This document shows, in pieces, positions 26,524 through 27,702 of a stretch of 64,000 nucleotides of DNA. The position numbers were made by a program, and so were the translations under genes. The stretch's first letter is position 1. Each line of letters starts with the position of its first letter. Under the pieces are notes generated by a model. That model was not told the DNA's origin. It ran no database searches and was given only the letters and a program-made list of their open reading frames with translations. The DNA is from Escherichia coli (lineage in GTDB: Bacteria; Pseudomonadota; Gammaproteobacteria; Enterobacterales; Enterobacteriaceae): assembly GCF_022846255.1 (NCBI RefSeq), contig NZ_AP025682.1, one strand, 5' to 3'.

Positions 26524-27702
26524 ATGACTGCTGTAAGCCAAACCGAAACACGATCTTCTGCCAATTTTTCGCTCTTCCGCATCGCTTTTGCGGTTTTTCT
26601 CACCTACATGACCGTAGGTTTACCGTTGCCGGTTATCCCGCTGTTTGTTCATCATGAACTGGGCTATGGCAACACTATGGTCGGCATTGCCGTCGGGATT
26701 CAGTTTCTGGCTACGGTGCTGACGCGTGGTTACGCCGGGCGACTGGCCGATCAATATGGCGCAAAACGTTCGGCACTTCAGGGGATGTTAGCTTGTGGTC
26801 TGGCGGGGGGCGCGTTGCTGCTGGCGGCGATTTTGCCCGTCCCCGCACCGTTCAAATTTGCTCTGTTGGTCGTCGGGCGTTTGATTCTTGGCTTTGGTGA
26901 AAGCCAGTTACTGACGGGCGCTCTGACCTGGGGATTAGGCATCGTTGGGCCAAAACATTCCGGCAAAGTGATGTCATGGAACGGAATGGCTATTTACGGT
27001 GCCCTCGCTGTTGGTGCGCCGCTTGGCCTGTTGGTTCATAGCCATTACGGTTTTGCCGCACTGGCGCTCACCACAATGGCATTACCCTTACTGGCGTGGG
27101 CCTGTAACGGCACAGTGCGCAAAGTATCGGCCCTGGCGGGGGAACGTCCATCGCTGTGGAGCGTTGTCGGGCTTATCTGGAAACCAGGGTTAGGTCTGGC
27201 ACTACAAGGCGTTGGTTTTGCGGTTATCGGGACTTTCGTTTCGCTCTACTTTGCCAGCAAAGGATGGGCGATGGCGGGCTTTACTCTTACCGCGTTTGGC
27301 GGCGCATTTGTCGTGATGCGCGTCATGTTTGGCTGGATGCCGGACCGTTTTGGCGGCGTGAAAGTGGCGATCGTCTCTCTGCTTGTAGAAACGGTGGGCT
27401 TGTTGCTGCTCTGGCAAGCCCCAGGGGCGTGGGTCGCATTAGCGGGCGCGGCGTTAACTGGAGCCGGATGTTCGCTTATCTTTCCTGCGCTGGGCGTGGA
27501 GGTGGTTAAACGTGTCCCCTCACAAGTTCGCGGCACCGCACTGGGCGGTTACGCCGCGTTTCAGGATATCGCCCTCGGCGTCTCCGGGCCGCTTGCGGGA
27601 ATGCTGGCGACCACGTTTGGTTACTCTTCGGTATTTCTTGCCGGGGCGATCTCTGCGGTGCTGGGAATTATTGTCACGATACTGTCGTTTCGTCGGGGTT
27701 AA
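26524..27702 (+). CDS. yfcJ: Major facilitator superfamily transporter YfcJ
   Basis: 392-aa, 12-helix-like hydrophobic profile. Confidence 0.85.

What the first reader, a model, noticed from the sequence alone, without database searches (positions are those of the whole stretch)
27699..27702. Convergent yfcJ and flk share overlapping stop codons within a TTAA palindrome
The yfcJ stop (TAA, 27700-27702, plus strand) and the flk stop (TAA on the minus strand, 27699-27701) overlap inside the palindromic TTAA. There is no space for terminators, so convergent transcription must collide or read through into the partner's antisense strand. This may couple expression of a transporter and the flagellar regulator.
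Basis: seen in the sequence. Interest (0 to 1): 0.15.

Follow-up and report, generated by a model that had tools for sequence, protein, structure and literature searches.

The report
Ordinary four-base overlap of two gene ends
Two E. coli genes on opposite strands (the transporter gene yfcJ and the flagellar regulator gene flk) really do end inside the same four bases, TTAA, but this is a common, already annotated and already published kind of gene arrangement, with no evidence that it links the two genes' functions.

Summary
yfcJ (26524-27702, +) stops at TAA 27700-27702 and flk (27699-28694, -) stops at the complement of 27699-27701, so both stops lie in TTAA. RefSeq annotates this overlap in every E. 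coli record inspected, K-12 included. It belongs to a described class: four-base tail-to-tail overlaps (CTAA/TTAA/CTAG/TTAG), with 58-75 convergent overlaps reported in E. coli. The flk-yfcJ pair is already listed among 165 convergent "excludons" of MG1655.

The overlap is kept in Escherichia species and Citrobacter koseri, but only 2 of 12 point changes in TTAA spare both proteins. One of them, CTAA, occurs in a natural strain, so the palindrome is not required. Other relatives have a 26-44 nt spacer holding a terminator-type hairpin, a 32-nt overlap, or a different gene facing flk.

The window has no conserved terminator. Two coding-region hairpins show no covariation, and published Term-seq gives no 3' end here. 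Termination is probably diffuse and Rho-dependent inside the partner gene.

"Couples expression" is untested and unlikely. In passing: a published strong PhoB binding site lies 10 nt from the junction. Interest is low.

The parts
27699..27702 (.). TTAA tetramer that holds both stop codons (yfcJ TAA 27700-27702 on +; flk TAA = complement of 27699-27701). The CDS overlap is 4 nt, in codon phase 123:213.
   Evidence: mutational scan; natural CTAA variant
26524..27702 (+). yfcJ, a 392-aa MFS transporter
   Evidence: ORF; NF009048, 1-392/392, 700 bits; PF07690; RefSeq annotation
27699..28694 (-). flk, a 331-aa flagella biosynthesis regulator with a hydrophobic C-terminal anchor ([18 protein letters not shown]) encoded right at the junction
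   Evidence: NF007987 equivalog, 506 bits; PF27202 Flk_N in homologues
27757..27786 (+). 11-bp inverted repeat (GGACGCGTTGC-N8-GCAACGTGTCC) inside the flk 3' coding region, 55-84 nt past the yfcJ stop. It could act as a pause or termination hairpin for yfcJ read-through, but it has no U-tract and is not conserved outside E. coli.
   Evidence: dG -19.8 kcal/mol; top 0.4% of 40-nt windows, but about 10% of 250-nt blocks contain one as strong; no covariation
27529..27558 (-). Hairpin in the flk-sense read-through RNA (antisense to yfcJ), 141-170 nt past the flk stop. It has no U-tract. The surrounding flk-sense RNA is C-rich and G-poor.
   Evidence: dG -18.7; C-G skew at the 90th-97th percentile of the window
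27672..27689 (+). pho-box-like direct repeat TGTCACGATACTGTCGTT in the last codons of yfcJ, ending 10 nt before TTAA. It corresponds to a published PhoB ChIP-seq peak in MG1655.
   Evidence: sequence; PMC10294691 Table 1 (peak centre 2438961, score 8, K-12 motif TGTCACGATACTGTCATT, no change in yfcJ RNA in a phoB deletion)

Best explanation
This is an ordinary 4-nt tail-to-tail overlap of two unrelated core genes. In the Escherichia / Citrobacter koseri lineage there is no spacer between yfcJ and flk, so the two TAA stops interlock as TTAA. Two other Enterobacteriaceae-like relatives (one close to Jejubacter, one unnamed) have a short spacer there that carries a terminator-type hairpin. Once formed, the arrangement is held in place by purifying selection on both proteins' C-termini, not by a regulatory role. 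Because there is no intergenic DNA, each mRNA's 3' untranslated tail is antisense to the last tens to hundreds of bases of the partner gene. Termination is most likely diffuse: Rho acts on the untranslated read-through RNA, possibly helped by fortuitous hairpins in the coding sequence. The transcripts therefore overlap, but at the low expression of these genes the effect on either product is probably small. Shown here: the anatomy, the gene identities, the conservation pattern, the mutational constraint, and the absence of a conserved structure. Taken from the literature: the transcript overlap, the Rho sensitivity of yfcJ transcription, and the absence of mapped 3' ends. Inferred: Rho as the terminator, and a negligible regulatory effect.
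For: Anatomy and annotation. Known class: PMC2174442 names CTAA/TTAA/CTAG/TTAG as the tetramers behind a jump at length 4. It counts 1890 convergent overlaps in 58 genomes, of which 1218 are 5 nt or longer, so by subtraction about 670 are shorter. It reports 58 convergent overlaps in E. coli. PMC4161906 counts 75. Constraint: only 2 of 12 substitutions in TTAA leave both proteins unchanged; the other 10 extend YfcJ to 443 aa and/or Flk to 357 aa. One of the two neutral variants, CTAA, is present in strain 13C1079T. Conservation: the 4-nt overlap is kept in E. albertii, E. whittamii and cryptic Escherichia clades, in the divergent E24377A allele (74% identity) and in C. koseri. Elsewhere the junction differs: +26 nt with a textbook bidirectional terminator (AAAAGCGCCC-TTCG-GGGCGCCTTT) in a Jejubacter-like genome, +44 nt with an 11-bp hairpin, and -32 nt. 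More distant relatives have flk facing a lyase gene, a rhodanese gene (1-nt gap) or fabB. No conserved terminator: pair counts on 14 sequences do not exceed shuffles (130/500) and helix 1 has no compensatory change. Rfam finds nothing at the junction. Transcription: flk-yfcJ is listed as a convergent excludon. No Term-seq 3' end lies in MG1655 2437000-2439999 in three growth conditions. A Rho termination region lies in the yfcJ 5' end with Rho score 5.8. The RNA downstream of the flk stop is C-rich.
Against: The exact -4 spacing persists while Flk diverges to 61% identity, which could also reflect selection for the overlap itself. The pair is on a published excludon list, and that study reports higher synteny for excludon pairs in general. 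The E. coli hairpin at 27757-27786 is strong and invariant in the seven closest E. coli-type sequences, apart from one pair-breaking change in MOD1-EC7003. No Rho-dependent 3' end has been mapped at this junction, so Rho termination here is an inference. I could not retrieve Salmonella, Klebsiella or Enterobacter loci, so the direction of change (spacer lost or gained) is not settled.
Confidence: 0.8

Rival explanations
1. Functional convergent excludon. Transcription of one gene runs into the other, and polymerase collision and/or RNase III cleavage of the mRNA duplex makes yfcJ and flk expression mutually exclusive.
For: flk-yfcJ is among the 165 convergent excludons called from at least 50% of 58 MG1655 transcriptomes (PMC12288877). 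There is no intergenic space. The overlap is kept across Escherichia and C. koseri.
Against: The list rests on RNA-seq coverage only, with no pair-specific test, and dsRNA validation was not possible for convergent pairs. Transcription through yfcJ is low and Rho-limited, so simultaneous occupancy should be rare. The conservation is explained by stop-codon constraint. Spacing and even the partner gene vary in relatives, two of which have a terminator-type hairpin between the genes. No functional link between the two genes was found in the literature searched.
Confidence: 0.12
2. A terminator embedded in coding sequence. The 11-bp hairpin at 27757-27786 inside flk acts as an overlapping bidirectional terminator of the kind described from SEnd-seq, in which a hairpin pauses the polymerase and a head-on collision ends transcription, giving defined 3' ends for yfcJ.
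For: dG is -19.8 kcal/mol, in the top 0.4% of 40-nt windows. The fold has a z-score of -2.7. The hairpin is identical in six E. coli strains. The collision-plus-hairpin model is described in bioRxiv 10.1101/2022.10.23.513370. An alternative 7-bp stem followed by a T-rich run was picked up by the terminator scan.
Against: About 10% of random 250-nt blocks in the window hold a hairpin as strong. Terminator-like hits in the region are only modestly above shuffles (8 versus 3.7 +/- 2.1). There is no U-tract after the 11-bp stem. Pairs are broken in MOD1-EC7003, E. albertii and other Escherichia, and there is no compensatory change. No Term-seq 3' end was reported there. For flk the hairpin lies upstream of its own stop, so termination there would truncate flk mRNA.
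Confidence: 0.06
3. PhoB-controlled junction. Under phosphate starvation, PhoB bound at 27672-27689 blocks polymerases at the junction or drives an RNA antisense to flk, linking phosphate status to flagellar control.
For: ChIP-seq peak centred at MG1655 2438961, 16 nt from the flk stop. Its score of 8 is the highest of all intragenic sites in Table 1, and it has a good pho-box motif (PMC10294691). The same study also found a PhoB site inside flhD.
Against: yfcJ RNA is 163 in wild type versus 187 in the phoB deletion. The authors conclude that intragenic sites are transcriptionally inert and not conserved. At the position expected for a -10 element the sequence is GTTAAC/TTAACG, at most 3 of 6 matches to TATAAT (read). 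The first half-site is lost in other Escherichia species (GTC to GTG) and the window itself carries TCG for TCA in the second half-site.
Confidence: 0.02

Closest known systems
Four-nucleotide tail-to-tail (convergent) CDS overlaps: the CTAA/TTAA/CTAG/TTAG class (Lillo & Krakauer 2007, PMC2174442)
   Same: Opposite-strand genes whose stop codons interlock in one of the four permitted tetramers, in phase 123:213. The terminator has to lie in the partner's coding sequence. This is exactly the arrangement seen here.
   Different: Nothing of substance. This is one instance among the 58-75 convergent overlaps counted in E. coli.
Convergent excludons (ExcludonFinder map of E. coli MG1655, PMC12288877)
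   Same: Neighbouring opposite-strand genes with overlapping 3' transcription; flk-yfcJ is listed by name.
   Different: For this pair only the transcript overlap is reported. Reciprocal regulation and RNase III processing, which give an excludon its function, have not been shown.
Overlapping bidirectional terminators between convergent genes (SEnd-seq; collision model, bioRxiv 10.1101/2022.10.23.513370; example ynaJ-uspE)
   Same: A convergent pair, a hairpin-forming palindrome near the junction, and no canonical U-tract.
   Different: Those elements lie between the genes and give sharp 3' ends. Here the hairpin is inside flk, is not conserved, and no 3' end is reported in the Term-seq tables consulted.
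Classical bidirectional intrinsic terminator in the same junction of relatives (L015 3512-3537, Jejubacter-like)
   Same: Same gene pair and same homologous C-termini.
   Different: The relatives have a 26-44 nt spacer with a GC hairpin. In L015 the hairpin is flanked by an A-tract and a T-tract. The window has no spacer.

Membership tests
4-nt convergent CDS overlap (CTAA/TTAA/CTAG/TTAG) | Two protein-coding genes on opposite strands with their 3' ends facing each other | tested here: met
   both products match curated families over their full length
4-nt convergent CDS overlap (CTAA/TTAA/CTAG/TTAG) | Both stop codons contained in one of the four permitted tetramers (phase 123:213) | tested here: met
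   TTAA at 27699-27702. The mutational scan leaves only CTAA and TTAG as neutral alternatives, and CTAA is seen in strain 13C1079T.
Convergent excludon | Overlapping transcription of the two genes | not testable with these tools
   No expression data can be analysed here. Published call: the pair is listed in at least 50% of 58 transcriptomes (PMC12288877).
Convergent excludon | Reciprocal (mutually exclusive) expression and/or RNase III processing of the duplex | not tested
   No pair-specific data were found. dsRNA validation failed for convergent pairs in general.
Overlapping bidirectional terminator (SEnd-seq type) | Sharp, overlapping 3' ends of both transcripts at a fixed site | tested here: inconclusive
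   No 3' end lies in MG1655 2437000-2439999 in the Term-seq tables of PMC7815308, but low expression could hide one. The SEnd-seq tables could not be reached.
Overlapping bidirectional terminator (SEnd-seq type) | Hairpin-forming element at the site, maintained in evolution | tested here: not met
   The hairpin is present in E. coli, but pairs are broken in other Escherichia and there is no covariation.
Intrinsic (Rho-independent) terminator | GC-rich stem-loop followed directly by a U-tract, downstream of the stop | tested here: not met
   Neither strong hairpin has a U-tract. Only a weak 7-bp alternative fold scored in the scan, where hits are near the shuffle level. The feature is met in relative L015.
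PhoB-activated promoter (pho regulon) | pho box (two TGTCA-type direct repeats 11 bp apart) bound by PhoB | tested here: met
   The sequence is at 27672-27689. Binding is published for K-12.
PhoB-activated promoter (pho regulon) | A -10 element at fixed spacing and PhoB-dependent transcription | tested here: not met
   GTTAAC/TTAACG matches TATAAT at no more than 3 of 6 positions. Published RNA levels do not change in the phoB deletion.

The most novel reading that the evidence does not exclude
The junction is a regulated collision point. PhoB bound 10 nt from the interlocked stops (the strongest intragenic PhoB site in E. coli K-12) would act as a roadblock, or would start an RNA antisense to flk, in phosphate starvation. 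That would change how far yfcJ or flk transcription invades the partner gene and would tie phosphate status to the flagellar checkpoint protein Flk.
Probability: 0.03. Interest if true: 0.45.

Novelty: already known. Interest (0 to 1): 0.08.

Why it matters
It matters little. The overlap is in every RefSeq annotation inspected, it belongs to a class described in 2007, and the pair is named in a 2025 excludon map. It does serve as a clean illustration of three points. First, interlocked stop codons become fixed because almost every mutation damages one of the two proteins. Second, the lineage with the overlap has no intergenic terminator-type hairpin of the kind seen at this junction in two relatives. 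Third, conservation of such an overlap is therefore not evidence of regulation. Only a demonstrated reciprocal effect on Flk or YfcJ levels would raise its importance.

Tried and rejected
1. Conserved RNA structure near the junction: rejected. Two candidate helices show no covariation and Rfam finds nothing there.
2. Canonical intrinsic terminator inside either gene: rejected, because neither strong hairpin has a U-tract and scan hits are near background.
3. GTTAAC hexamer palindrome as the meaningful unit: rejected. The E24377A allele has GGTTAAAT, C. koseri has GGTTAAGA and 13C1079T has GCTAAC.
4. An 8-nt inverted repeat flanking the junction (27678-27685 / 27740-27747): treated as chance, since it is short and not centred on TTAA.
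5. Strong C-rich rut-like region downstream of the yfcJ stop: not found. It is found only downstream of the flk stop.
6. Published 3'-end data: no supplements are held for PMC12288877, PMC9023263, PMC11092163 or PMC12259150. The TERMITe supplements do not mention either gene. The SEnd-seq paper is not held.
7. Salmonella, Klebsiella and Enterobacter loci: not obtained. The genome scan returned only Escherichia and the protein lists were dominated by Escherichia and Citrobacter.

Full report
**Observation.** Window 27695-27705 reads GGGGT TAA CGA. The + strand ORF 26524..27702 (392 aa) stops at TAA 27700-27702. The - strand ORF 27699..28694 (331 aa) stops at the reverse complement of 27699-27701. 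The two CDSs therefore share the 4 nt TTAA. In addition, the last base of yfcJ's final GGT codon lies in flk's stop, and the last base of flk's final CGT codon lies in yfcJ's stop.

Both ORFs are genuine genes. The 392-aa product matches NCBIfam NF009048 over 1-392 of 392 positions (700 bits). The 331-aa product matches the Flk equivalog NF007987 (506 bits). Pfam gives MFS_1 for the first.

The window is E. coli. A 2.5-kb stretch around the junction is 99.7% identical to strain 23AR0806 and is present in 5422 of 5426 complete genomes. RefSeq annotates the same 4-nt overlap there, in K-12 MG1655 (flk 2437950..2438945, yfcJ 2438942..2440120) and in four other strains I opened.

**How unusual is it?** In the first 50 kb of the window there are seven convergent junctions, with gaps of 437, 61, 319, 120, -4, 47 and 33 nt. 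This is the only overlapping one.

- Lillo & Krakauer (PMC2174442) describe a jump at length 4 in the length distribution of convergent overlaps. [quoted passage not shown]
- Their tables give 1890 convergent overlaps in 58 genomes, of which 1218 are at least 5 nt long. By my subtraction, about 670 are of the short kind.
- They count 58 convergent overlaps in E. coli. They note that terminators must then lie in the partner's coding sequence, and that only 23 of the 116 genes have a predicted Rho-independent terminator.
- Huvet & Stumpf count 75 convergent overlapping pairs in E. coli (PMC4161906).

**Conservation and its cause.** The overlap is kept in the following:

- E. albertii, E. whittamii and cryptic Escherichia clades, where Flk is about 86% identical and the last residues vary (Flk R/S, YfcJ G/C).
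- The highly divergent yfcJ-flk allele of strain E24377A, 74% identical in DNA.
- Citrobacter koseri, where Flk is 61% identical.

A 14-sequence alignment of 221 columns across the junction has no gaps.

Conservation does not imply function here. Of the 12 possible point substitutions in TTAA, only T27699C (giving CTAA) and A27702G (giving TTAG) leave both proteins unchanged. The other ten extend YfcJ from 392 to 443 aa and/or Flk from 331 to 357 aa. One of the two neutral variants, CTAA, is actually present in strain 13C1079T, so the palindrome as such is not needed. The flanking hexamer GTTAAC is not kept either.

Outside this clade the junction differs:

- A Jejubacter-like genome has a 26-nt spacer consisting of a textbook bidirectional intrinsic terminator, AAAAGCGCCC-TTCG-GGGCGCCTTT, with dG about -21 to -23 kcal/mol.
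- Another relative has a 44-nt spacer with an 11-bp hairpin.
- Another has a 32-nt overlap.
- C. amalonaticus has two genes inserted between flk and the MFS gene.
- In more distant relatives flk faces an aromatic lyase gene (100-nt gap), a rhodanese gene (1-nt gap) or fabB directly.

The C-termini of both proteins end at homologous residues, give or take one, in the genomes with and without a spacer. The E. coli state therefore reflects the absence of the spacer, not a lost stop codon and an extended reading frame. I could not obtain Salmonella, Klebsiella or Enterobacter loci, so whether the spacer was lost or gained is not settled.

**Where does transcription end?** There is no intergenic DNA, so termination has to occur inside the partner gene.

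- Going in the yfcJ direction there is an 11-bp inverted repeat at 27757-27786, with dG -19.8 kcal/mol.
- Going in the flk direction there is a hairpin at 27558-27529, with dG -18.7.
- Neither hairpin is followed by a U-tract.
- Hairpins this strong occur in roughly 10% of 250-nt blocks of the window.
- The first hairpin is identical in six E. coli strains. It is broken by a substitution in Escherichia sp. MOD1-EC7003 and by several in other species.
- Pair counts on the alignment do not exceed shuffled controls (130 of 500 shuffles are as high), and there is no compensatory change in that helix.
- Rfam finds nothing at the junction.
- The RNA downstream of the flk stop, which is antisense to yfcJ, is C-rich and G-poor, at the 90th-97th percentile of the window. 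The RNA downstream of the yfcJ stop is not.

Published data agree with diffuse termination at low expression.

- The Term-seq tables of Adams et al. (PMC7815308) contain no 3' end between MG1655 2437000 and 2439999 in three growth conditions.
- They do show the fabB terminator at 2440281 (window about 26363).
- Their Rho table has a termination region at 2440043, about 78 nt into yfcJ (window about 26601). Downstream/upstream reads are 15/236 without bicyclomycin and 98/266 with it, giving a Rho score of 5.8.

Little transcription therefore reaches the junction from the yfcJ side in rich medium.

ExcludonFinder (PMC12288877) lists flk-yfcJ among 165 convergent pairs with overlapping RNA-seq coverage in at least half of 58 transcriptomes. 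The same list includes two other convergent pairs of this window, smrB-yfcO and yfcH-rpnB. That study offers no pair-specific test, and it could not validate convergent pairs by dsRNA capture.

**Interpretation.** The further steps are not supported. Collision needs simultaneous transcription of two weakly expressed genes. The stops are on different mRNAs, so there is no translational coupling. The partner gene and the spacing are not conserved beyond a narrow clade. Two relatives place a terminator-type hairpin between the same two genes.

My best explanation (confidence about 0.8) is an ordinary, constraint-locked 4-nt overlap with diffuse, probably Rho-dependent termination inside the partner gene and little regulatory consequence. 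The rivals, with my estimates:

- A functional excludon: about 0.12.
- The flk-internal hairpin acting as a collision-type bidirectional terminator, as in the model of bioRxiv 10.1101/2022.10.23.513370: about 0.06.
- A PhoB-controlled junction: about 0.02.

**Noticed in passing.** Fitzgerald et al. (PMC10294691) report a PhoB ChIP-seq peak centred at MG1655 2438961, which is 16 nt from the flk stop.

- Its score of 8 is the highest among the intragenic sites in their Table 1.
- The motif is TGTCACGATACTGTCATT.
- yfcJ RNA is unchanged in a phoB deletion. The authors regard intragenic sites as inert.
- In the window the motif lies at 27672-27689 and carries one synonymous change.
- The first half-site is lost in other Escherichia species.

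This is the only element near the junction that could support a more novel reading, and the evidence is against it.

**Verdict.** The feature is real, already annotated, of a well-described kind, and already named in a published list. Interest is low.

Noticed in passing
window 27672-27689 (+): A pho-box direct repeat (TGTCACGATACTGTCGTT) in the last codons of yfcJ, 10 nt from the junction. It matches a published PhoB ChIP-seq peak in MG1655 (centre 2438961, score 8, the strongest intragenic site) with no effect on yfcJ RNA. The first half-site is not conserved in other Escherichia species.
   Followed up: partly
L023 (E. coli 13C1079T) 1300-1303; alignment A1 column 60: A natural variant with CTAA instead of TTAA at the junction: the flk stop becomes TAG and the last yfcJ codon changes from GGT to GGC. 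It is one of only two substitutions that are neutral for both genes.
   Followed up: yes
L020 (E. coli E24377A) 2486-4662: This one genome of 5426 carries a very divergent yfcJ-flk allele (about 74% DNA identity; Flk coded by 1002 nt) between normal fabB and pdxB. It looks like an imported segment, and it still has the TTAA overlap.
   Followed up: partly
window about 26601 (MG1655 2440043, yfcJ sense): A published Rho termination region about 78 nt into yfcJ (Rho score 5.8; downstream reads rise from 15 to 98 with bicyclomycin). This suggests premature Rho termination of yfcJ transcription or of fabB read-through.
   Followed up: partly
window 26269-26363: The fabB-yfcJ spacer holds a REP-like element (naRNA4 model, 40.9 bits, below the gathering score) followed by the fabB intrinsic terminator AAAAGGGAACC-CGAT-GGTTCCCTTTTT. 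That terminator corresponds to a Term-seq 3' end at MG1655 2440281, but the simple terminator scan did not list it.
   Followed up: partly
L015 3512-3537; L017 3491-3534: In two relatives the flk-MFS spacer holds a GC-rich hairpin. In L015 it is a compact bidirectional intrinsic terminator (a GC hairpin flanked by an A-tract and a T-tract). In L017 it is an 11-bp hairpin with no U-tract. The window has no spacer at this position.
   Followed up: yes
L027 3490-3492; L016 3468-3499: Other tight flk 3' junctions. One has a 1-nt gap to a convergent rhodanese gene. The other has a 32-nt convergent overlap with the MFS gene, whose C-terminus is different and longer.
   Followed up: no
window 17167-17487 and 44540-44588: Two further convergent pairs in the window (yfcO-like adhesin gene/smrB, and rpnB/yfcH) are also on the published list of E. 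coli convergent excludons.
   Followed up: no
window 35679-35749 (+): A REP-type naRNA4 match above the gathering score (80.3 bits) lies downstream of dedD. Here the window is about 480 bp shorter than the closest reference genome: cvpA starts at 35946 in the window and at 36427 in L021.
   Followed up: no
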